A stretch of 64,000 bases of DNA, taken from Escherichia phage vB_EcoM_DE16. Below, in pieces: positions 8,563 through 17,301 of the stretch (positions are counted from its first letter, which is position 1; each line of letters opens with the position of its first letter). The stretch lies in the sequence record OP595145.1. The stretch is one strand, 5' to 3'. The notes beneath the pieces are model-generated. The model saw only the letters and a list, made by a program, of their open reading frames with translations, made no database searches and had not been told where the DNA came from. A program made the translations under genes and the position numbers.

Positions 8563-11235
8563 ATGTTTCCAATTCCAATATTTACTATTATGACCAGCAC
8601 TGGTGTCGTTCCTCTGCCAGCAGGTATTGTTAAAAAAGTAATTACTTTAGATTACCCAGATAACGCTGGTAATTCTAACAGCAGTTTAGCAATTTTGCTT
8701 AATGATGGTAGATTGTTTACTCAAGGCGCAAACCTCTTTGGTGAGATTGCAGATGGAACTCGTAGTGCACGATTCAATAATTTCCACTTAGCTTCTACTG
8801 TAGTAGCAGATGTGTTTACCGCAGATCGTTGTTTTGTTATTAAAACTAACAGTGGGGGATGGCAATATTCAGGATTGACAGCAGGGTTGGTAGGATCTAT
8901 AGCAGCAGGTGGTACGGATGCATGTGTAACTACTTGGACCAGCTTTCCATCTGTAATAACAGGGACTATTTCTTTAGCCAATCTTAAAGAGGTTAAAGGA
9001 GGGTATAACAATACTCTCTGGTTAATGAATAGTGGTGTTCTTTATGGATCGGGTCAAAACACAGTAGGCAGTTTAGGTGCAAGCACTACTAACGAAGTTT
9101 CTACTCCTCGTCAGATAACAAGCGCAGCAGTTGCTTTTGATGCAGGTTACAACCAATGCTCTTATGTCAACAATGTGGGAACCTTGCGTGTTTGTGGAGC
9201 TAGTAAAGGTTTAGCAGGTAATAATAACACAACAACCGCTTTTGTCAATGCCAAGATATCCACTACTGAAACAGTGTATGTCAAAGATTACATCAATACA
9301 GTTTCCCAGACAATAGTTGTAGGAGATACCTCCGGTGGTACGGGTACGGTAAACTACTTATATGTTAGGTCTAATACAGAAACAACCTACACTAAACTGG
9401 ACACCTTTGCAGCAGGTTTCTCAACATGGAAGTTTCCACCAAGCCGCCACTCTTTTTTCGTTGGGATCAATAATTCCTTGTGGGCTATTGGTAAGAACTA
9501 CACTGCAAACTTAGGTTTGGGGTATGATTCTGCGAGCGGAGATCCGCTTCAAGTGGGAAAACCAGTTAAACCTGAAGGAGTGGGTTCCTGGGATATAAAC
9601 AAGCTCACAAGCGTTCATACGCTGAATATGGATGTTACTAACCAATTAGGTTATCAAGGAACCTTTTTCGTTTATAACGGGGATATGTATTATTCCGGTA
9701 TTTGGAAAGATGGGAAAGCCTCGTATCTGTTCAATAGTGGTTTAAACTATAATAAATTCACACCAATAGCAAGCTCTGTGATTACAGGGGATGTGCTGGC
9801 AACTAGCTTAACTACAGATTCTTTAGGAATTTGTATTGTAGGTGGAACTAAACAGTTGACGCATTCTGTTAGCCCAGAAGGAGGTAAACTTTTCAATATT
9901 AAATACACTTCTTCTGCCCCTGCAAACATGACAATATCATCTACTGGTTTAATGACTTTCCATGCAGAAGGTGGTTTTGATGCAGGTATGACAGCCTTAA
10001 ACGCTGAAGGAACAACTTTATCAGATACCTCTGGAGGATATGCTTCAACATTAAGTGTTTACACCCCTAGCTTATCTGCGATGGATGTAGGAACAACACA
10101 AACAATGGTAGCAGAAATAACGCCAACAGGGGCAGCAAGCTTACCTGGTATGGTTGTTGAGTATACAACTACAGATCCTAATGTTGCTACAGTAGATCCT
10201 ACAACTGGTGTAATAACTGGTGTTGGTGATGGTGGTTGTAGAATTGGTTGCACAGCTACGTATCAAGGTGTTGTTACCGCTTCTGATAGTTCTTATTTAA
10301 CGGTGAACGCTGTTGCGGGAAAGGAGTTAGCTCCATCTCCGAGTAGTAGTTTAACGGTTCTAAACGGATATTTCAACCACTCGGCAGATGGGGCAATCAC
10401 GTTCCCAATTTTATCGGGTACTGTCACACCAGCTAACTTTGTAGTTAAGGTGGATGACGTTGTAATACCTTCAAATAAAGTAATATTTAGAAATAAAGCT
10501 TTCTCTACAGTGGATAGTTATCCAGCAGGAGAATATAGACTGGCTATTGAATTTGCAAGTGCTTCAGTAGTGAATAGTGTTGATGTGTCTATGGAAGCAA
10601 ATCCAGATCTTTTAGAATTATGGGGCGGCAACAGAATTGGTTATTCTACAAGCCCAGCCTCACAATTCTTAAAAGGTTGTGCTAACTTAAGACGAATAAC
10701 TTCTGATTGTTTTAGTAACACATCTTACACCGGAACATCTATAAGTGGTATCTTCTCTGGCTGTACAAGTTTGACAGCTATCCCTGAAGGATTATTCAGT
10801 GATGCTTTATTTCCTTCAATGACAACAATGTCAAGCACGTTTGAAGGTTGTACATCTTTAACATCTATTCCTTCAGATTTATTTAAGAATCTGTCAAAAG
10901 TTACAAGATATTCTTACACCTTTAAAGATTGCACCTCTCTTGCAGAAGTTCCAGCAGGAATGTTTGATAATATTCCAACGAAAGTGACCTCTTTAACAGC
11001 TACATTCCAAGGTTGTTTAGCACTTACAGATTTTAATAAAATCTTTAATGACAATCCAGGGTTAACTGTTTGTGGTAAACGTGGATCATTATCTTCTTTC
11101 TTTAGTGGATGCACAAATCTTACAGGAACAGGAACAACATTAACAAATACATTAGGCGGAGTAGCTAATAGTTACCTATTCAGGTATTGCACAAAACTTT
11201 CTGATTATAATAATATTCCTTCGGGTTATAAATAA
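8563..11235 (+). CDS. tail fiber / receptor-binding protein with Ig-like segment and C-terminal BspA-type LRR-like repeats
   Basis: 890 aa; GGAGGG RBS; C-terminal ~200 aa carry at least 5 copies of F-x-G-C-T-S/N-L-T-x-I/V-P-x-x-L/M-F. Confidence 0.5.
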   Translation: MFPIPIFTIMTSTGVVPLPAGIVKKVITLDYPDNAGNSNSSLAILLNDGRLFTQGANLFGEIADGTRSARFNNFHLASTVVADVFTADRCFVIKTNSGGWQYSGLTAGLVGSIAAGGTDACVTTWTSFPSVITGTISLANLKEVKGGYNNTLWLMNSGVLYGSGQNTVGSLGASTTNEVSTPRQITSAAVAFDAGYNQCSYVNNVGTLRVCGASKGLAGNNNTTTAFVNAKISTTETVYVKDYINTVSQTIVVGDTSGGTGTVNYLYVRSNTETTYTKLDTFAAGFSTWKFPPSRHSFFVGINNSLWAIGKNYTANLGLGYDSASGDPLQVGKPVKPEGVGSWDINKLTSVHTLNMDVTNQLGYQGTFFVYNGDMYYSGIWKDGKASYLFNSGLNYNKFTPIASSVITGDVLATSLTTDSLGICIVGGTKQLTHSVSPEGGKLFNIKYTSSAPANMTISSTGLMTFHAEGGFDAGMTALNAEGTTLSDTSGGYASTLSVYTPSLSAMDVGTTQTMVAEITPTGAASLPGMVVEYTTTDPNVATVDPTTGVITGVGDGGCRIGCTATYQGVVTASDSSYLTVNAVAGKELAPSPSSSLTVLNGYFNHSADGAITFPILSGTVTPANFVVKVDDVVIPSNKVIFRNKAFSTVDSYPAGEYRLAIEFASASVVNSVDVSMEANPDLLELWGGNRIGYSTSPASQFLKGCANLRRITSDCFSNTSYTGTSISGIFSGCTSLTAIPEGLFSDALFPSMTTMSSTFEGCTSLTSIPSDLFKNLSKVTRYSYTFKDCTSLAEVPAGMFDNIPTKVTSLTATFQGCLALTDFNKIFNDNPGLTVCGKRGSLSSFFSGCTNLTGTGTTLTNTLGGVANSYLFRYCTKLSDYNNIPSGYK

Positions 11236-11237
11236 GA

Positions 11238-11266
11238 AAAGGAGCCATTTGGCTCCTTTCTTTTAT
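11238..11266. terminator. bidirectional rho-independent terminator between convergent gene blocks
   Basis: AAAGGAGCC-ATTT-GGCTCCTTT hairpin flanked by A-run and T-run; lies between plus-strand stop (11235) and minus-strand stop (11300). Confidence 0.65.
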
Positions 11267-11299
11267 TCAGCATTCAACCTCACACACTTGAAACAAACC

Positions 11300-12232
11300 T
11301 TAGAAGCAATGCAGGAAGTTTCGACCATATTGCAGTCCAATAGGAGCAAATGGAATATCATCGTCGAAGTCCATTGGAGGTTCTTCTTGATTACTTGGAG
11401 TTGGTTCTGGTTGTGGTTCAGGCTTCTTAACTTCTTTCTTCTCTTCTTTCTTAGGTTGTTCTGCGGAACCACGAATGGCAGCAGCAACTTTATCAGACAG
11501 AGCCAGAACTTTACGAGCAGAGTCAATCAGATCTTCTACAGATACAGTCTTAATGGTATGGTCTTTACAAGCATTGAGAATAGCGTGACCAACAGATGCC
11601 CCAAGATCATAATCATTAATATCAACGCCACGAGATTCAGCAATTTCCGATTTCAGCGTGACAGTTGCAGATTGAACAACCCCAGCGATATCGAAAGCAT
11701 CACCTTTAACACCATTACGAATCAGTTCCAGTGCACCATTTACTGCGTGACCAGTTTCCAGACCTACAGTATCACGTTTTTTATAGGACTGCTTAGGAGC
11801 AGCATCGTTGGAACCTTTATTGCCAGAAGATTTGTTAGACTTCTGAACACCATCGGTAGACAATACTGTAATACGAGATTTTTTAGTATTGTAGTAAGTT
11901 TTACCGCCTTTATTATCAACGCGATCAATATCAATACTTACTTCTACACCTTTTTCAATAGTGATCCAATTATCACCTTCTTTGACTTGCAGGTTTTCAT
12001 AACCTTCTTTCAGTTCAATGTCACCAAGAGAAATCCAAACACCTTTCTCATCTGGTTTAGCACCTTTCTCTTTCAGAACAAGAGAAGCTCGGTGAGTTGA
12101 AACAATCGTTTTTCCTTCCCAATGAAAAGTTTTAGGTTCAGCGAATTTATCCAGTTTAACGTAGTCTACGATACCAGTTGCATAAGTTACGGTTTTGCCT
12201 TTACGATCAGTTTCAGTATTAATTACGGACAT
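11300..12232 (-). CDS. SSB-like protein carrying an E. coli SSB C-terminal tip motif (PMDFDDDIPF) followed by a 15-aa extension
   Basis: 310 aa; AGAGGAG RBS; acidic Pro/Glu-rich linker then MDFDDDIPF; N-terminal domain not recognisable by eye. Confidence 0.45.
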   Translation of the reverse strand: MSVINTETDRKGKTVTYATGIVDYVKLDKFAEPKTFHWEGKTIVSTHRASLVLKEKGAKPDEKGVWISLGDIELKEGYENLQVKEGDNWITIEKGVEVSIDIDRVDNKGGKTYYNTKKSRITVLSTDGVQKSNKSSGNKGSNDAAPKQSYKKRDTVGLETGHAVNGALELIRNGVKGDAFDIAGVVQSATVTLKSEIAESRGVDINDYDLGASVGHAILNACKDHTIKTVSVEDLIDSARKVLALSDKVAAAIRGSAEQPKKEEKKEVKKPEPQPEPTPSNQEEPPMDFDDDIPFAPIGLQYGRNFLHCF

Positions 12233-12248
12233 TATTATCTCCTCTACA

Positions 12249-12641
12249 TTACATTAATTTTGCACAGAAAGAACGGAGTCTTTCCATATCATCTTGCTCT
12301 AACAGGTATTTACCTTTACCTATTCCAACTCCAATTTCACCATTAGGAAAATGAACTATTTGCACTGGGAAACCTCCGAGTTTAATTGTGGCAGCTTTGC
12401 CTTCTTCGTCTATAACGTTTCGGATTGTATCTTGCAGTGAAATGAATTCTTTGTTTGTAACGGTGGTTTCAATTATTTCAGATGTTTCAACACGAGCAGT
12501 TAGCTTCTTGTTTCCACCTTGAATAACCAAAATTTGAAAATAAAAAGAGTTGTCAAGACCTACAACATTTTTCTCAACTAGTGTCAAACTGGTATAGTTT
12601 CCATAAACAGTTTCAACAGCTATCTTAGAACGTTCAGTCAT
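12249..12641 (-). CDS. hypothetical protein
   Basis: 130 aa ORF with ATG start, tightly packed in the minus-strand operon. Confidence 0.4.
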   Translation of the reverse strand: MTERSKIAVETVYGNYTSLTLVEKNVVGLDNSFYFQILVIQGGNKKLTARVETSEIIETTVTNKEFISLQDTIRNVIDEEGKAATIKLGGFPVQIVHFPNGEIGVGIGKGKYLLEQDDMERLRSFCAKLM

Positions 12642-12686
12642 TGAATGCTATCCTATCATAAAATGTTTAATATTGTCAAGCTTTAA

Positions 12687-13280
12687 TTACCAAGGAATAT
12701 CATCTTCTTCCAATCTGGTATCTACTTGAGGTGGACGTGGAACCTTAACCTCTTTCACAAAACGAAGATATGGGAAACGTGTAGCAATTTTAATAACATG
12801 TTTGGCATCTTCTCTAACATCTTTGTGCAAGAAGCAGATCCCTGTTTCCAAGGTTGTTTCAAAATCTTCAGAATAATAACAATCCTTCCCATCAAATGCA
12901 GCCTGGCAGATGGACAGATCGAACTCATTTAGAAAGGTTGTCATTACGCTTGTTTCCATAATCATAAGGTTGCAAAGCTGACCATCACGTTCAAACTCAA
13001 AAACGTGTTTAAGACCAGTAACACCTTCATAATTGTCAGAAGCCTCTTTGTTTCCTAGTTTACGAATATTGGTTCCCATTAAAGCAGATGCAATTAATCC
13101 TTGTATTTGTTCTTCAGTCCGATGTGCAGGAAGGGATGTATAGAAATCCAGATCACGTCCAGCAATATCAAGAATACGCCAATCACGAACAGCACCGCCA
13201 GCCAAGACAGAATTAGGATCAGCGATCTTTAATACGGTAAGAATCTCTTTGGCAATATTGATTTGTTTTGATTTAGTCAT
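12687..13280 (-). CDS. nucleotidyltransferase-fold-like protein with SSB-tip-like acidic C-terminus (EEDDIPW)
   Basis: 197 aa; GG-x13-DLD arrangement (LAGGAVRDWRILDIAGRDLDF) compatible with pol-beta-type NTase; true C-terminus is ...LEEDDIPW. Confidence 0.4.
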   Translation of the reverse strand: MTKSKQINIAKEILTVLKIADPNSVLAGGAVRDWRILDIAGRDLDFYTSLPAHRTEEQIQGLIASALMGTNIRKLGNKEASDNYEGVTGLKHVFEFERDGQLCNLMIMETSVMTTFLNEFDLSICQAAFDGKDCYYSEDFETTLETGICFLHKDVREDAKHVIKIATRFPYLRFVKEVKVPRPPQVDTRLEEDDIPW

Positions 13281-13491
13281 TGATACGCTCCACAGTTACT
13301 TTTACAACATCGTCCATATTAATCTCATCCCCCAAGACCTCAATAACACCTTCCTCATAAAGTCGAGCACATTCTTCCCACACTTCAGCTTCCGTCATTC
13401 CACCTGCAATCTTATTTGCAAGACCTTTAATAACATCTTCATTTTGTTCATCAATAAGAATTGAAACATTAAAGCTCACTAATTTACGCAT
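13273..13491 (-). CDS. hypothetical protein
   Basis: 72 aa; AAGGAG RBS 6 nt upstream of ATG. Confidence 0.4.
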   Translation of the reverse strand: MRKLVSFNVSILIDEQNEDVIKGLANKIAGGMTEAEVWEECARLYEEGVIEVLGDEINMDDVVKVTVERIND

Positions 13492-13501
13492 TGTTTTCTC
13501 C

Positions 13502-13873: not shown

Positions 13874-13891
13874 AAGGGGCAGAAGCCCCTT
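13874..13891 (-). terminator. intergenic GC hairpin after the DNA polymerase gene
   Basis: AAGGGGC-AGAA-GCCCCTT stem-loop; weak U-tract. Confidence 0.35.
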
Positions 13892-13909
13892 ATAAAACAA
13901 TACGTTAGA

Positions 13910-16507
13910 TCAATGACAGGATGCCCAGGAATTACCCACATCATATCCGGCAGTAAGCTGAACATTAAGATTGTAAAATTCTCCAGCCTTAGTAACAGCT
14001 AAGGCAGCAAGTTCACCTGCCCGACTATAGGCTGTAAACCATCCACCTTTGGGAGATTCATGAATGTTAGCCCAAATTTGCCCTGTCTCTTTTTCCTTAT
14101 TATGCTTCCATTCTTCGACTTTAGCAAGGCATTCTTTATCAATTTTCTTTTGTTCTTCAGGATCGTCTACTTTCTTCCAACCTAATGATTCAGGTGAAAA
14201 CCATTTGAATTCTACAAGGTTACGAGAAACTTCAAGCTGGGCTTCATCGTGGTATGCAATCATTTGTTGCACGAAGTCTTTATTCTTCCAATCATCTTTA
14301 AAGAAGTCAACACTTAGTCCTTCTTCTTCGATCATGTCGTCATAAATAACCATTGCACGTTTAGCACAGATAACCCCACCACTTTGGAACAGAGAGTTAA
14401 GAATCGCGTGAGCAGAACGAGTAGGAACCTTACGACCGTCAATACCCAAAACATATTGTTTACCAGTCTTAACCCAGAAATCGTTTAAACGTTCTTTAAG
14501 ACGCGCCAATGGGAATGCAGCTTCCCAGAAAGCATCGAACACCAATTGACCTGTAAACTTATCGCTACCAATTGTTTTAGCAACCTTGTCGGCTTGTGCA
14601 CCATAGGTAATACCATACTTAACAGATTTAGCAGGACTACGTTCAAATTTACGTCCAATAGTTTCAGTGATACGTTTTGCCATCATTGTGTGAACATCAT
14701 TAGGTTTCTCTAACAACAGGGCGTTACAATACTCGTGTGGCTCCGGCTCGTACCGCCAACAGTAGTGTGATTCAATTTTTGCTTCCAAAGAGTCGAAGTC
14801 GTAGCCGATCTGGAAGTATTTAGGAACCTCCACACCAAACAAGTTACGCATCTCCCATCCAAACAAAGATGTGACACGAGGAATATTAGCTACAGACCTA
14901 TGCTTCATACGCGAGGTTGCAGCATCACATGTAGCGGCTGGGGTAGGAATACGCCCATCCGCCCTTACTGCGGCTAAGAAACCTTTATCGTATTCTTGAT
15001 CTTCTTCATCTTCTTCCCAATCAGCACCGCCACCTAAAATAGAGTTCCTACGATGTTTATACGTTAAGTATTCTACAATCTGTGTAGCATAAGGGAATTT
15101 CTCACCCAAAGCTTGCAGGTTAGGACAGATTTCTTTTTCCTGACCTTTGGTAAAGCATGGGTTAGTCAATACTTTAAGACCGCGACCTTTACCTTTTGCT
15201 ATACGCTCTTGAATCTTCCTTTCCAAAGTTTCCGGTGTGCACTCCAGATGATCACAACGATCCTGACAAAAATTAGAAGATAGAGTTTGCTCAACGTAAG
15301 CTCGAATACCTTTCTGAAGTTCTTCCTCGCTCTTTTTAATCTTGGTGCCAGATTTAAGAGTCAAGTCTTTATCTTTATATTCAGACGGTACCCAACCTAA
15401 TCCTACAAGCCAGTTTTTAATATGGGTAGTATCGTTCAATGTTGCAGGGATGTTAGGATCACACAAAGGCTCATCTGCTGCAACTGGCAGTTTCCACTCT
15501 TTCCCCAACATCACTAACCACCAATCTCCATCCCTCTCTTCCAAATGACCATCATGTTTCTTAGCAAAATTGATCATATGGTTAGTTGGCTCTAAGTTCT
15601 TTTTAATTTGCAACTTAGGTGGAATAAAAGCCTTAAGATAACCTTTTGTTGCTGGTTTAGGTGGCAAAATAGGCTCAACGAGTAAACGAAGACGCTCCAT
15701 TTCTGCATCCAAAAAAGCAAGGTTCTCTTCTGCTTGCTTCATGTTAAAAGCAAACCCACGGTGTTCCTGGCGTGTAATAATGTCTGCTACACGTTGTTCA
15801 AGTTCAAATGGACCTTCCCATTTATCATAATCACCCCATTCTTCCATAAGGTAATTATATACGCTCGTATTGGCTTTGTTGTCATAGATACAGTAATAAA
15901 GCATATCAGCAGCAAAAGTCTTAAATCGATCTTCTTCTGGAATCTCTTTACGGAAATCTATTTTTACATCACCCCCTGCCTTTCGAGAAAGTGCTGCCAA
16001 ACTATGTCCTGATTTGCCTTCAATCTTTCGATCTGGGTTTAACACTTTACTCAAAATCAAGGAGTCAATAAGTTTTACCTTATTTTTGCCCCACGTATTA
16101 TATTTAACACTGTAATCTAAGCCATAAAACAGTTTTGTAGCCAACCAGTCATAGTTGATACCGTTGTGAGCCACAGCCATTTCAACCAGATATTCAGGCT
16201 TATCTTTAAAATAACCTTCATGATTAATAAAGTCTGGGAAATCTTTTAGTTGAAAATGTGTGTAATCTTGCGCCACATACTCTTTAAGAACATATGTGTA
16301 TTTACCATCTGACTCTTCATAAGGACGCCCATCAAAGATGTATTTAGGGCCATCGTGGAAAGCTACTATTTCTCCTGTTTCATGGTTCTCTAAGACAATA
16401 CAGTGCATTTGAAATGTGTCTTTGAGACGATAAGGACTAGCTAAATAATCGATAGTGTCATTATTCAACAATCCGTTTGCTTCAATATCCCATGTAAACT
16501 TACTCAC
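13910..16507 (-). CDS. DNA polymerase, family A, T7 gp5-like, with N-terminal 3'-5' exonuclease
   Basis: 865 aa; N-terminus MSKFTWDIEANGLL mirrors T7 gp5 MIVSDIEANALL (Exo I); motif B-like ERSPAKSVKYGITYG; motif C YHDE; C-terminus ...NSWASCH like T7 ...PNWAICH; GTG start after AGGAGG, overlapping upstream stop (TAGTG). Confidence 0.85.
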   Translation of the reverse strand: MSKFTWDIEANGLLNNDTIDYLASPYRLKDTFQMHCIVLENHETGEIVAFHDGPKYIFDGRPYEESDGKYTYVLKEYVAQDYTHFQLKDFPDFINHEGYFKDKPEYLVEMAVAHNGINYDWLATKLFYGLDYSVKYNTWGKNKVKLIDSLILSKVLNPDRKIEGKSGHSLAALSRKAGGDVKIDFRKEIPEEDRFKTFAADMLYYCIYDNKANTSVYNYLMEEWGDYDKWEGPFELEQRVADIITRQEHRGFAFNMKQAEENLAFLDAEMERLRLLVEPILPPKPATKGYLKAFIPPKLQIKKNLEPTNHMINFAKKHDGHLEERDGDWWLVMLGKEWKLPVAADEPLCDPNIPATLNDTTHIKNWLVGLGWVPSEYKDKDLTLKSGTKIKKSEEELQKGIRAYVEQTLSSNFCQDRCDHLECTPETLERKIQERIAKGKGRGLKVLTNPCFTKGQEKEICPNLQALGEKFPYATQIVEYLTYKHRRNSILGGGADWEEDEEDQEYDKGFLAAVRADGRIPTPAATCDAATSRMKHRSVANIPRVTSLFGWEMRNLFGVEVPKYFQIGYDFDSLEAKIESHYCWRYEPEPHEYCNALLLEKPNDVHTMMAKRITETIGRKFERSPAKSVKYGITYGAQADKVAKTIGSDKFTGQLVFDAFWEAAFPLARLKERLNDFWVKTGKQYVLGIDGRKVPTRSAHAILNSLFQSGGVICAKRAMVIYDDMIEEEGLSVDFFKDDWKNKDFVQQMIAYHDEAQLEVSRNLVEFKWFSPESLGWKKVDDPEEQKKIDKECLAKVEEWKHNKEKETGQIWANIHESPKGGWFTAYSRAGELAALAVTKAGEFYNLNVQLTAGYDVGNSWASCH

Positions 16508-17301
16508 TATTCCTCCTTTCTAATGTTCTCCAGAACCCACTGAAGTTCTTTTAAACTTAAACTTCTTACTCCCGCAGTTTTACTAGCTTCAGCTTTAAGT
16601 AACGGGTAAGCCTCAATGATACGCGTTTTAAGATCAGAAGTCAAGGCTTTTAAAAAATAGGTAGATGCTTCAGATAAAGAATCTTCTTCTGATAACACTT
16701 TACCTGCACTTGCTCCCGCTCTCCTAACGGCTATATCGTAGTCTTTACTGTTACCTAATACGAATAGTCGATTCTCTCCTAAAACAACGGGAGAACGCTT
16801 CTCGTTGCGTTTAATCCATATCTGGAATACACAAGGAACATCCCAAGGTTCTCCATGAAGAATAAAAGATCCTTTTGGACATTCTTCTTCGTAAAGAAGA
16901 TGCATATGGGGATTTAGTTTGTGTGCAAAAAAGATTTTTTGAAATGTGCGAGGCAAGATAAAACAAATACCACCTTCGTTATCCAGCATTTCAGCACAAT
17001 GGTTAAAGAATTTAATGGCAAGACTAGCATTTTTTCCAAATGGAGGATTACCGACAAAAGCAGTTACACTACCAACAGACTCAACAGATTGAGCTAAAAA
17101 ATCTGCCTCAATACAATCTTCAAACTTAGGGTCAATATCAAAAGAAGTTATGTTTTTAAAACAAGAAGAGAAAGCTCCTTCTCCCGCAGATGGTTCTACG
17201 TAGTTAGCTTCCTCTCCAAAAATTTCTTTGATCTTATCACATAAGAACCCCGCATAAGCGGGGTTAGTGTAATATTGATCAAGTGTGTTCAACTTGCTCA
17301 A
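16507..17301 (-). CDS. N6-adenine DNA methyltransferase-like protein
   Basis: 264 aa; motif I-like VEPSAGEGAF then motif IV GNPPFG; TTG start after AAGGAGG; stop overlaps polymerase start. Confidence 0.6.
   Translation of the reverse strand: MSKLNTLDQYYTNPAYAGFLCDKIKEIFGEEANYVEPSAGEGAFSSCFKNITSFDIDPKFEDCIEADFLAQSVESVGSVTAFVGNPPFGKNASLAIKFFNHCAEMLDNEGGICFILPRTFQKIFFAHKLNPHMHLLYEEECPKGSFILHGEPWDVPCVFQIWIKRNEKRSPVVLGENRLFVLGNSKDYDIAVRRAGASAGKVLSEEDSLSEASTYFLKALTSDLKTRIIEAYPLLKAEASKTAGVRSLSLKELQWVLENIRKEE

What the first reader, a model, noticed from the sequence alone, without database searches (positions are those of the whole stretch)
11300..13280. Two adjacent proteins carry SSB C-terminal-tip motifs, one internal and one terminal
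The 310-aa protein contains the exact E. coli SSB tip PMDFDDDIPF, but 15 further residues (APIGLQYGRNFLHCF) follow it. In bacterial SSB the tip functions as the free C-terminus. The next gene ends in ...RLEEDDIPW, a tip-like true C-terminus on a nucleotidyltransferase-fold-like protein. Either the first gene has a frameshift or read-through artifact, or the phage deliberately masks one tip and appends another to an enzyme, which would redirect the host SSB interactome.
Basis: seen in the sequence. Interest (0 to 1): 0.55.

Follow-up and report, generated by a model that had tools for sequence, protein, structure and literature searches.

The report
Capped SSB tip beside endonuclease-gene scar
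A phage DNA-binding protein carries the host-style docking tail followed by 15 extra residues; this is not a sequencing error but a conserved, apparently undescribed "cap" found on many phage SSBs, and here it sits next to the scar of a selfish endonuclease gene that targets SSB gene ends.

Summary
Both motifs are real. The window is a phAPEC8-like coliphage (Phapecoctavirus). The 310-aa protein is an OB-fold SSB whose exact E. coli tip (PMDFDDDIPF) is followed by APIGLQYGRNFLHCF. The 197-aa nucleotidyltransferase ends in EEDDIPW. The two genes are not adjacent: a 130-aa gene lies between them.

The extension is not an artefact. At least eight other independent genomes share it. About 40 near-identical relatives stop right after IPF. 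Inside the genus the extension travels with an HNH/EndoVII-type homing-endonuclease gene. The window keeps only a 21-codon remnant of that gene.

The extension also belongs to a widespread family of caps (AP[IV]GLQY plus a hydrophobic, usually Cys-containing end). These occur on SSBs, and on some primase-helicases, of gamma-proteobacterial phages and prophages. Most capped genes have no endonuclease gene nearby, and the peptide is under purifying selection.

The endonuclease family sits directly behind SSB-tip-encoding gene ends in at least 72 of 76 viral contigs.

The transferase's DDIPW tail is conserved down to about 35% identity behind a variable linker.

What the cap does is inferred, not shown: masking, re-targeting or a removable pro-peptide. 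The coordinated "mask one tip, append another" idea is not supported.

The parts
11300..12232 (-). SSB gene, 310 aa, 'capped-tip' allele
   Evidence: ORF. phrog_4477 matches at E=3e-97, with the profile ending at residue 295, which is the F of the tip. Annotated as single-stranded DNA-binding protein in Mt1B1_P17 and EF1-1. AF2 model has mean pLDDT 81.
11858..12232 (-). N-terminal OB-fold domain (residues 1-125)
11474..11767 (-). Four-helix domain (residues 156-253) of unknown role
11378..11473 (-). Disordered Pro/Glu/Lys-rich linker before the tip
   Evidence: Sequence RGSAEQPKKEEKKEVKKPEPQPEPTPSNQEEP. pLDDT 44-57.
11348..11377 (-). SSB tip PMDFDDDIPF, internal in this allele
   Evidence: Identical to E. 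coli SSB residues 169-178. F289, D290, D292, P294 and F295 are invariant or nearly so in 79 homologs.
11303..11347 (-). 15-residue cap APIGLQYGRNFLHCF
   Evidence: Shared by Mt1B1_P17, ZCKP1, nieznany, PsgM04F, ECO340P2, vB_Ec-G1 and phi92. Member of the AP[IV]GLQY cap family. Five synonymous and zero non-synonymous differences against the phi92-type copy.
11263..11328 (-). 21-codon remnant of an HNH/EndoVII-type homing endonuclease gene (MVETSCIASKVCFKCVRLNAE*); its ATG lies inside the cap codons
   Evidence: Alignment with the intact 164-codon gene of Mt1B1_P17 and nieznany shows that the first 15 and last about 4 codons are retained and about 143 codons are deleted in frame. The intact gene matches phrog_2340 'endonuclease' at E=1.5e-48.
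11237..11260 (.). Bidirectional intrinsic terminator between the SSB gene and the convergent tail-protein gene; right border of the indel
   Evidence: The flank ATAAAAGAAAGGAGCC... is shared by all alleles.
12249..12641 (-). Conserved 130-aa gene of unknown function between the two tip-bearing genes
   Evidence: ORF. phrog_16560 matches at E=1e-76, function unknown. Syntenic 132-135-aa genes occur in phi92-like and other relatives. No Pfam, NCBIfam or PDB match.
12650..12679 (-). Sigma-70-like promoter (TTGACA, 18 nt, TG-TAGGAT) upstream of the 130-aa and SSB genes
   Evidence: Consensus scan, 10 of 12 positions with an extended -10. This is a consensus match only.
12687..13280 (-). 197-aa nucleotidyltransferase
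   Evidence: phrog_10174 and phrog_1614, both 'nucleotidyltransferase', at E=1.7e-62 and 2.4e-11. 446 relatives in the representative library. Orthologs carry a precomputed PF26128 'Gad2' hit.
13146..13199 (-). Catalytic signature GGAVRDWRILDIAGRDLD (class II Pol-beta nucleotidyltransferase head motif)
   Evidence: G28, G29, D43 and D45 are invariant in 64 family members. The profile aligns this motif to CCA-adding enzyme 6ibp (GGAVRD...DVD) at E=0.015, which is weak.
12690..12740 (-). Transferase C-terminal linker plus tip PRPPQVDTRLEEDDIPW
   Evidence: D193, P196 and W197 are invariant, and D194 and I195 are at least 90% conserved, in orthologs of 58-97% identity, while the linker varies in length and sequence. 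P0134, at 35% identity, also ends in DDIPW.

Best explanation
SHOWN.
(1) The 310-aa protein is the phage's SSB. It has an OB fold, a helical domain and a disordered acidic tail carrying the exact enterobacterial SSB tip.
(2) The 15 residues after the tip are a genuine heritable allele. Within Phapecoctavirus the SSB 3' end exists in four states:
- free tip, no endonuclease gene (the majority);
- free tip plus a type-B endonuclease gene;
- capped tip plus a type-A endonuclease gene whose ATG lies inside the cap codons;
- capped tip plus a 21-codon remnant of that gene (the window).
Gene bodies are 99% identical up to the last two tip codons, so the 3' end is swapped as a cassette.
(3) The endonuclease family (ββα-Me, HNH/EndoVII-like, with a zinc-finger N-terminus) is specialised for the 3' ends of genes that end in an SSB tip.
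(4) The cap is one member of a conserved family: AP[IV]GLQY, then 2-3 residues, then two hydrophobic residues, any residue, Cys or Ala, and a final hydrophobic residue. This family is found on many SSBs, and on some primase-helicases, of phages and prophages of gamma-proteobacteria. Most of these have no endonuclease gene nearby, and the peptide is maintained by purifying selection.
(5) The 197-aa protein is a small Pol-beta-type nucleotidyltransferase of a large phage family. In this lineage it carries a conserved variable-linker-plus-DDIPW tail.

INFERRED.
- Canonical docking of the SSB tip uses the terminal Phe side chain and its free alpha-carboxylate. The cap therefore most likely switches off or re-targets the tip towards host SSB-interacting proteins. 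Alternatively it is removed to unmask the tip.
- Homing and co-conversion by the endonuclease gene move the capped 3' end between phages.
- The transferase's DDIPW tail most likely docks the enzyme into the same kind of pocket that binds SSB tips, on a host or phage replisome protein. This would parallel the two acidic, aromatic-ended tails of T7 gp2.5 and gp4.
- Whether the cap came first (as the endonuclease's target) or arrived with the endonuclease gene is unresolved.
For: Identity and alleles:
- 97-99% DNA identity to about 67 Phapecoctavirus records.
- The three-way alignment shows the free-tip, capped-plus-endonuclease and capped-plus-remnant alleles with sharp borders.
- C-termini and junction DNA of ten genomes were read directly; allele distribution is.
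- 99% identity with anhysbys through the gene body, then a break at the tip.

Fold:
- AF2 mean pLDDT 81.

Cap family:
- 28 of 120 homologs retrieved by the SSB body carry PF+[AS][PS][ILV]GL[QP]Y plus 6-10 aa; the other 92 end in PF.
- 37 IMG/VR contigs and 8 bacterial genomes were found with a degenerate DNA pattern.
- It occurs in phi92 gp156, rV5 gp209, epsilon34 SSB, Vibrio phage Val-yong3 SSB and the Vequintavirinae primase-helicases.
- 85 of the 120 nearest homologs of a classical Vibrio-phage SSB carry an addition after the tip (this sample is biased because the query itself carried the cap).

Selection on the cap peptide:
- Window versus phi92-type: 5 synonymous and 0 non-synonymous changes.
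- For the last 7 codons, which the search pattern did not constrain, pN/pS is 0.46 in the SSB frame against 0.9 and 1.8 in the other two frames.
- Only about 5 of the 37 motif loci have this endonuclease gene downstream. The others are followed by methyltransferase, RdgC-like or unrelated genes.

Endonuclease family:
- phrog_2340 'endonuclease'.
- Of 76 IMG/VR loci with enough upstream sequence, 75 by a lenient rule (at least 72 by eye) lie directly behind an ORF ending in an acidic-xPF tip.
- Of those 75, 33 have a free tip, 26 have one added residue (Asn in 20) and 16 have 4-22 added residues.

Transferase:
-.

Literature:
- The DnaG pocket contacts the tip's carboxylate (PMC5872125).
- T4 segG lies next to, and targets, the SSB gene 32 (PMC2988022).
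Against: - No experiment or structure here shows what the cap does. AF2 leaves the tail disordered.
- Phages with free and capped tips are 99% identical and were isolated on the same E. coli K-12 host. The cap is therefore neither essential nor lethal there and could be nearly neutral in this genus.
- Many endonuclease-associated SSB genes carry unrelated additions (+1 Asn and others). This shows that some C-terminal remodelling is simply tolerated.
- In the endonuclease-associated caps, the last codons are also constrained by the overlapping endonuclease start.
- The first seven cap residues of the IMG/VR set were imposed by my search pattern.
- The transferase fold could not be modelled (pLDDT 45). 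Its PDB and Pfam matches are below threshold.
- phi92's ortholog lacks the DDIPW tail.
Confidence: 0.7

Rival explanations
1. The extension is a sequencing or assembly error (a lost stop codon or a frameshift) in this one genome.
For: Most close relatives have TGA right after the Phe codon. The PHROG profile ends at residue 295.
Against: - An identical extension occurs in ECO340P2, 536P1, DIJ07P2, vB_Ec-G1, Mt1B1_P17, ZCKP1, nieznany, PsgM04F and phi92.
- The difference from the short allele is an 85-nt versus 28-nt segment replacement, not a point change.
- Related caps are found in hundreds of other SSBs.
Confidence: 0.01
2. The cap is only a by-product of endonuclease-gene insertion. The SSB frame reads through into the mobile cassette until the first stop. 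The peptide has no function of its own and is merely tolerated. Its conservation reflects the cassette's own signals: the ribosome-binding site and the overlapping start of the endonuclease gene.
For: - In the genus, the cap occurs only with the type-A endonuclease gene or its remnant.
- The endonuclease ATG lies inside the cap codons in eight different contexts.
- More than half of endonuclease-associated SSB genes have some addition after PF, many of them unrelated to this cap.
- Capped and uncapped phages are both viable on K-12.
Against: - About 30 of 37 cap-bearing loci have no such endonuclease gene and show tidy operon junctions to unrelated genes.
- phi92 and L017 keep the cap without the gene.
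- Substitutions are synonymous in the SSB frame but non-synonymous in the endonuclease frame (window versus phi92-type).
- Cap length is held at 13-17 codons with no premature stops in more than 50 sequences.
- The AP[IV]GLQY part lies upstream of the endonuclease start in most cases.
Confidence: 0.15
3. The cap is a pro-peptide. It is cleaved between Phe and Ala-Pro, or trimmed from the C-terminus, by a host or phage protease. The mature SSB would then regain the free tip, and the cap would time or limit tip activity or act as a degradation signal.
For: - The tip stays strictly host-like (DFDDDIPF) in capped proteins. This implies that it is still used.
- The PF|AP junction is invariant.
- Some caps end in ssrA-like ...YALA...ALYA or ...IYAL. 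That resemblance rests on my own knowledge of the ssrA tag.
Against: No protease site is known to me that matches F|AP. No processing data exist. The second half of the cap is also conserved (Φ-Φ-[NH]-C-Φ), which a simple cleavage site would not require.
Confidence: 0.15
4. One reading: the phage masks the SSB tip and transfers tip function to the nucleotidyltransferase in order to redirect the host SSB interactome.
For: Both features coexist in the window. The transferase tail is conserved and truly C-terminal.
Against: The two features assort independently. Most Phapecoctavirus genomes have a free SSB tip together with the DDIPW transferase. phi92 has the capped SSB together with a transferase lacking the tip.
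Confidence: 0.08

Closest known systems
E. coli SSB C-terminal tip (SSB-Ct, ...PPMDFDDDIPF)
   Same: Identical 11-residue sequence after a disordered linker on an OB-fold ssDNA-binding protein. The transferase tail EEDDIPW keeps the acidic run, I-P and a terminal aromatic residue.
   Different: In the window's SSB the tip is not the C-terminus, because 15 conserved residues follow it. The SSB body is not a canonical PF00436 SSB: only the tail matches known SSBs by sequence. The transferase is not an SSB and ends in Trp.
T4 segG / gene 32 (a free-standing homing endonuclease gene next to, and targeting, the phage SSB gene; PMC2988022)
   Same: A free-standing endonuclease gene lies next to the SSB gene. 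It shows presence/absence polymorphism among close relatives, and flanking sequence is exchanged with it.
   Different: SegG belongs to the GIY-YIG family. The family here is ββα-Me (HNH/EndoVII-like, phrog_2340) with a zinc-finger N-terminus. It sits at the extreme 3' end, overlapping or replacing the SSB stop codon, and it recurs behind tip-encoding gene ends in very diverse phages. Cleavage was not tested.
T7 gp2.5 and gp4 acidic C-terminal tails ending in Phe (my own knowledge of the T7 replisome literature)
   Same: More than one replication-module protein in one phage carries an acidic tail with a terminal aromatic residue. In Vequintavirinae the primase-helicase also carries tip plus cap.
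   Different: Here the tails copy the host SSB tip sequence. One of them is on a nucleotidyltransferase and one is capped. No polymerase-binding data exist.
Gad2, anti-Gabija nucleotidyltransferase (Pfam PF26128; bioRxiv 10.1101/2023.05.01.538930)
   Same: A phage-encoded predicted nucleotidyltransferase. Orthologs of the window protein carry precomputed PF26128 hits.
   Different: Gad2 is about 400 aa and comes from Bacillus phages; the window protein is 197 aa. Its own cluster has no Pfam hit on record, and the local Pfam copy lacks the model. No anti-defence test was done. No SSB-like tail is reported for Gad2.
Class II CCA-adding enzyme / poly(A) polymerase head domain (PF01743)
   Same: The GGAxRD...DxD catalytic signature is invariant across the family.
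   Different: Only the first roughly 60 residues align, at sub-threshold scores (14 bits against a cutoff of 23; E=0.015 against PDB). There are no neck, body or tail domains, and no tRNA genes in the window.

Membership tests
Bacterial-type SSB C-terminal tip (SSB-Ct) | Acidic-hydrophobic sequence D-D-D-I-P-F | tested here: met
   PMDFDDDIPF at 11348-11377 is identical to E. coli SSB residues 169-178. The transferase has EEDDIPW.
Bacterial-type SSB C-terminal tip (SSB-Ct) | Motif is the extreme C-terminus, with a free alpha-carboxylate on the aromatic residue | tested here: not met
   In the SSB, 15 residues follow the Phe. The feature is met for the transferase, where W197 is followed by a stop, and for the SSB of most sister phages.
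Bacterial-type SSB C-terminal tip (SSB-Ct) | Tethered by a disordered linker to an OB-fold ssDNA-binding domain | tested here: met
Bacterial-type SSB C-terminal tip (SSB-Ct) | Binds SSB-interacting proteins (ExoI, chi, RecQ, PriA and others) | not testable with these tools
   Needs peptide-binding assays.
Free-standing homing endonuclease gene (HNH/EndoVII ββα-Me) | Intact endonuclease ORF with the catalytic His-Me motif | tested here: not met
   The window retains only 21 codons (11263-11328) without the HH...H motif. Intact 142-164-aa genes are present in Mt1B1_P17, nieznany, ZCKP1, PsgM04F and nepoznato, and they match phrog_2340 at E=1.5e-48.
Free-standing homing endonuclease gene (HNH/EndoVII ββα-Me) | Presence/absence polymorphism at one site among near-identical genomes | tested here: met
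   Four allelic states at the SSB 3' end, with 99%-identical flanks.
Free-standing homing endonuclease gene (HNH/EndoVII ββα-Me) | Recurrent association with one conserved target gene | tested here: met
   At least 72 of 76 family members in IMG/VR lie directly behind an ORF ending in an SSB-type tip.
Free-standing homing endonuclease gene (HNH/EndoVII ββα-Me) | Site-specific cleavage of the endonuclease-free allele and biased inheritance | not testable with these tools
   Needs in vitro cleavage assays and phage crosses.
Pol-beta superfamily nucleotidyltransferase (class II CCA/PAP head) | hG[GS]-x(9-13)-Dh[DE]h catalytic motif | tested here: met
   GGAVRDWRILDIAGRDLD. G28, G29, D43 and D45 are invariant in 64 relatives.
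Pol-beta superfamily nucleotidyltransferase (class II CCA/PAP head) | Significant profile match or fold match | tested here: inconclusive
   PHROG nucleotidyltransferase families match at E=1.7e-62 and 2.4e-11. Pfam PF01743 scores 14 bits against a cutoff of 23. PDB CCA-adding enzyme matches at E=0.015. The AF2 model is unusable at pLDDT 45.
Gad2 (PF26128) anti-Gabija protein | Match to the PF26128 model | tested here: inconclusive
   Precomputed hits exist for orthologs P0009 (60% identity) and for the L010 and L012 proteins. There is none on record for the window's own cluster, and the model is absent from the local Pfam copy.
Gad2 (PF26128) anti-Gabija protein | Roughly 400-aa architecture and inhibition of Gabija | tested here: not met
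   The protein is 197 aa, against 400 aa for Gad2. The activity itself cannot be tested here.

The most novel reading that the evidence does not exclude
The AP[IV]GLQY...C-Φ cap is a functional switch on mobile-element SSBs. It converts the universal host-type tip into an internal motif, so that phage or prophage SSB no longer recruits, or recruits a different set of, host genome-maintenance enzymes. Alternatively it is unmasked by proteolysis at a set time. A dedicated homing-endonuclease family spreads the capped and uncapped alleles between phages. In parallel, the DDIPW tail is a true SSB-tip mimic. It would dock a Gad2-like nucleotidyltransferase onto SSB-tip pockets of host or defence proteins, either to modify them or to block them.
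Probability: 0.3. Interest if true: 0.85.

Novelty: new variant of a known kind. Interest (0 to 1): 0.68.

Why it matters
The SSB tip is the hub through which more than a dozen bacterial replication, repair and recombination enzymes are recruited. The field treats its free C-terminal Phe as indispensable. A conserved peptide that follows the tip in many phage and prophage SSBs either breaks that rule or defines a new way of regulating it.

The question becomes directly testable because natural isogenic pairs exist: phages that are 99% identical, with and without the cap. It bears on how phages use or avoid host nucleases and helicases, and possibly on defence systems that watch SSB.

An endonuclease-gene family that homes to the tip-encoding end of SSB genes explains why this locus is a recombination hot spot. 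It also gives a handle for phage engineering.

A nucleotidyltransferase with a conserved SSB-like tip suggests that enzymes can be delivered to the SSB interaction network by tip mimicry.

For genome annotators, the extra residues should not be 'corrected' as errors.

Tried and rejected
1. Random read-through into endonuclease DNA was my first reading. I dropped it as the full explanation once the cap proved conserved in SSBs of 30-60% identity and in loci without the endonuclease gene.
2. I thought the free-tip allele might carry a decayed copy of the cap codons (TCTTATTGA versus TCCTATTGGA). This is not significant: 3205 of 5000 shuffles reach the same alignment score. The polarity of the polymorphism is therefore unresolved.
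3. Recent horizontal transfer of the cap between phi92 and the window: cap DNA is 83% identical against 68-75% for the gene body. This is too small a contrast to decide.
4. AF2 on the transferase with an 11-sequence alignment failed (pLDDT 45), so no fold search was run on it.
5. A direct test of Gad2 homology was not possible. The local Pfam copy lacks PF26128. The paper gives no accession for SPbetaL7. The 400-aa relative P0258 is not the Bacillus Gad2, because it has no Bacillus-phage hits.
6. I read the cap by eye as a beta-clamp-binding motif (QLxLF) or a PIP box. The spacing does not fit, so I rejected it; this rests on my own knowledge.
7. I looked for other tip-bearing proteins in the window and found none.
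8. Full-text searches for the peptide strings (APIGLQY, IPFAPI, DDIPFA, DDIPFN and others) and for endonuclease genes at ssb genes found nothing relevant.
9. The PDB holds no chain with the cap and no relative of the 130-aa protein.
Full report
**What is there**

The window matches about 67 Phapecoctavirus (phAPEC8-like, Stephanstirmvirinae) genomes at 97-99% identity over 11100-13500. All relevant genes are on the minus strand:
- DNA polymerase I, 13910-16507.
- Several small genes.
- A 197-aa nucleotidyltransferase, 12687-13280.
- A promoter-like site, 12650-12679.
- A 130-aa gene of unknown function, 12249-12641.
- The 310-aa SSB, 11300-12232.
- A bidirectional terminator, 11237-11260, facing a convergent tail-protein gene.

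- The tip PMDFDDDIPF lies at 11348-11377. It is identical to the last residues of E. coli SSB, PDB 1eqq.
- It is followed by APIGLQYGRNFLHCF (11303-11347).
- The transferase ends in EEDDIPW.

No other ORF in the 64 kb has such a motif near its end. The genes are not adjacent, since the 130-aa gene separates them.

**The SSB**

Only the tail resembles known SSBs by sequence. An AF2 model built on 79 homologs (mean pLDDT 81) gives three parts:
- A beta domain, residues 1-125.
- A four-helix domain, residues 156-253.
- A disordered tail.

**The extension is an allele, not an error**

Aligning the SSB 3' ends of relatives and surveying the phage collection gives four states:
- (a) A stop immediately after IPF and a 28-nt spacer to the terminator. 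This was read directly in anhysbys and EF1-1. It is inferred from match patterns for about 40 further phages.
- (b) A stop after IPF followed by a 143-aa endonuclease gene (nepoznato, AV125).
- (c) The 15-residue extension followed by a 164-aa endonuclease gene whose ATG lies inside the extension (caaTATGGtc). This is seen in Mt1B1_P17, ZCKP1, nieznany and PsgM04F.
- (d) The extension followed by a 21-codon remnant, MVETSCIASKVCFKC-VR-LNAE*. It keeps both ends of that gene and has lost about 143 codons in frame. This is the window (11263-11328), ECO340P2, 536P1, DIJ07P2 and vB_Ec-G1.

All five remnant alleles share the same junction, so a single deletion event is likely. The window and anhysbys are 99% identical through the whole gene body and diverge only from the last two tip codons onward. 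The 3' end is therefore exchanged as a cassette. Phages of states (a), (b) and (c) were isolated on the same E. coli K-12 host.

**The endonuclease family**

The intact genes match phrog_2340 'endonuclease', with weaker matches to EndoVII and HNH families. They share a CxxC...CxxC N-terminus and an HH...H motif.

A profile-guided scan of IMG/VR found 317 relatives, of which I examined the best 80. Of the 76 with enough upstream DNA, 75 by a lenient rule (at least 72 by eye) lie directly behind an ORF that ends in an acidic run plus [ILVT]PF, in very different phages. Among those 75:
- 33 have a free tip.
- 26 have exactly one added residue (Asn in 20).
- 16 have 4-22 added residues.

This family is therefore specialised for the tip-encoding end of SSB genes and often remodels the protein's last residues. 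The nearest precedent is T4 segG, a GIY-YIG homing endonuclease gene beside, and targeting, gene 32 (PMC2988022). Cleavage and homing were not tested here.

**The cap is more than a scar**

Among 120 homologs retrieved through the SSB body (30-99% identity), 92 end in PF. The other 28 carry PF+[AS][PS][ILV]GL[QP]Y followed by 6-10 residues.

A degenerate DNA pattern for DIPFAP[IV]GLQY found 37 IMG/VR contigs. Most are 40-55-kb phages with classical Gln/Gly-rich SSBs. The same pattern found 8 bacterial genomes, presumably prophages or plasmids, nearly all of them gamma-proteobacteria.

GenBank examples:
- phi92 gp156, with a cap identical to the window's and no endonuclease gene.
- rV5 gp209.
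- Salmonella phage epsilon34 SSB (APVTLPFPRHAIHAI).
- Vibrio phage Val-yong3 SSB (APIGLQYPALLNCM).
- The DNA primase-helicases of Vequintavirinae (KE23 ...DMDDDTPF-APIGLQYANHAIYVL; NDO71 ...AKHAIYVI).

Of the 120 nearest homologs of the Val-yong3 SSB, 85 carry an addition after the tip, mostly of this family. That sample is biased, because the query itself carried the cap.

Only about 5 of the 37 motif loci have the endonuclease gene. The rest run straight into methyltransferase, RdgC-like or unrelated genes with tidy junctions.

Evidence that the peptide is under selection:
- Identical caps are encoded with many synonymous differences. PALLMCM is CCT GCT CTA TTG ATG TGT ATG in one locus and CCA GCA CTC TTA ATG TGC ATG in another.
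- Window versus phi92-type shows 5 synonymous and 0 non-synonymous changes. Two of these would be non-synonymous in the endonuclease frame.
- For the last seven codons, which my search pattern did not constrain, pN/pS is 0.46 in the SSB frame against 0.9 and 1.8 in the other frames.
- Cap length stays at 13-17 codons.

Two classes are visible:
- One has Pro, Arg or Lys after QY and ends like LLNCM. It has no endonuclease gene.
- The other has Gly or Ala after QY. The endonuclease start codon is nested in its [HY][AV] codons. This is the window's class.

The tip itself remains strictly DFDDDIPF in capped proteins, which argues that it is still used.

I found no mention of these peptides in the searchable literature. 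That library does not cover most subscription journals.

**What the cap probably does (inference)**

In solved complexes the tip binds through the terminal Phe side chain and its alpha-carboxylate. This rests on established SSB-Ct structural work; for DnaG see PMC5872125. A cap removes that carboxylate. The options are:
- Permanent masking or re-targeting of the tip.
- A composite tip-plus-cap motif for another partner.
- A removable pro-peptide.

I favour masking or re-targeting, but the data do not discriminate between these. The near-neutral hitch-hiker reading remains possible for this particular genus.

**The transferase**

It matches PHROG nucleotidyltransferase families. It belongs to a family of at least 446 cluster representatives of roughly 190-aa phage proteins. 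G28, G29, D43 and D45 are invariant within GGAxRD...DxD, the class II CCA-adding / poly(A) polymerase head signature. Pfam and PDB scores are sub-threshold, and the AF2 model failed.

Orthologs carry precomputed Pfam PF26128 'Gad2' hits. Gad2 is a 400-aa anti-Gabija protein with a predicted nucleotidyltransferase domain. Membership could not be tested directly.

The tail is clearly selected. D193, P196 and W197 are invariant across orthologs of 58-97% identity, while the preceding linker varies in length and sequence. A 35%-identical relative also ends in DDIPW. Most of the wider family, and phi92's ortholog, lack the tail.

This is the signature of an acquired short docking motif. I infer that it binds an SSB-tip pocket on a host or phage protein.

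The cap and the transferase tip assort independently across phages. A coordinated mask-and-append strategy is therefore not supported.

**Verdict**

The artefact reading is refuted.

Noticed in passing
window 13910-16507 (-), compared with L002/L148 (anhysbys) and L003 (ECO340P2): The window's DNA polymerase I ORF is 865 aa, as in Mt1B1_P17. It abuts the 264-aa DNA N6-adenine methyltransferase gene (16507-17301). In anhysbys and ECO340P2 the polymerase CDS is 1110 aa. That is a 735-nt in-frame difference at the 5' side, possibly an intein, an inserted domain or another mobile element.
   Followed up: partly
L004 4217-4807 (EF1-1), corresponding to about 13880-13910 in the window: EF1-1 has a 196-aa HNH endonuclease gene between the small genes and DNA polymerase I. 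The window and most relatives lack it. This is a second endonuclease presence/absence site in the replication module.
   Followed up: no
L068-L147 (IMG/VR loci of the endonuclease family): 26 of 75 SSB genes that precede this endonuclease family end in PF plus exactly one residue (Asn in 20, Ser in 4). They come from diverse phages. The recurrence of Asn is unexplained.
   Followed up: partly
P0280-P0399 (homologs of the Vibrio phage SSB): A second, unrelated cap family follows the tip in several Vibrio-associated SSBs: PF-RD[TV]FARG[AS]RTAY[AC]CS. Like the main family it ends in a small residue or Cys near the C-terminus.
   Followed up: no
L053 524-2578 (KE23) and L065 1-1581 (NDO71): The DNA primase-helicases of Vequintavirinae end in an SSB-like tip plus the same cap (DMDDDTPF-APIGLQYANHAIYVL; GPDDDTPF-APIGLQYAKHAIYVI). 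In KE23 the same endonuclease family follows. In NDO71 a different HNH gene follows.
   Followed up: partly
window 12650-12679 (-): A good sigma-70-like promoter (TTGACA, 18 nt, TG-TAGGAT) lies between the transferase gene and the 130-aa gene. The 130-aa and SSB genes may therefore form their own transcription unit.
   Followed up: no
window 11249-12100 (+): A 283-aa ORF with a TTG start runs antisense through the SSB gene. It is low-complexity and Phe/Ile-rich, has no annotation in any relative, and is most likely spurious.
   Followed up: no
window 11100-13500, compared with the phage collection: Records labelled Campylobacter phage B15/A145, Acinetobacter phage ABPW7/ABPH49 and Dompiswa phage TSP7_1 are 94-98% identical to these coliphages. 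Their host labels may be unreliable.
   Followed up: no
window 1-64000: ARAGORN found no tRNA gene in the window. A tRNA-repair role for the CCA-adding-like transferase therefore gets no local support.
   Followed up: no
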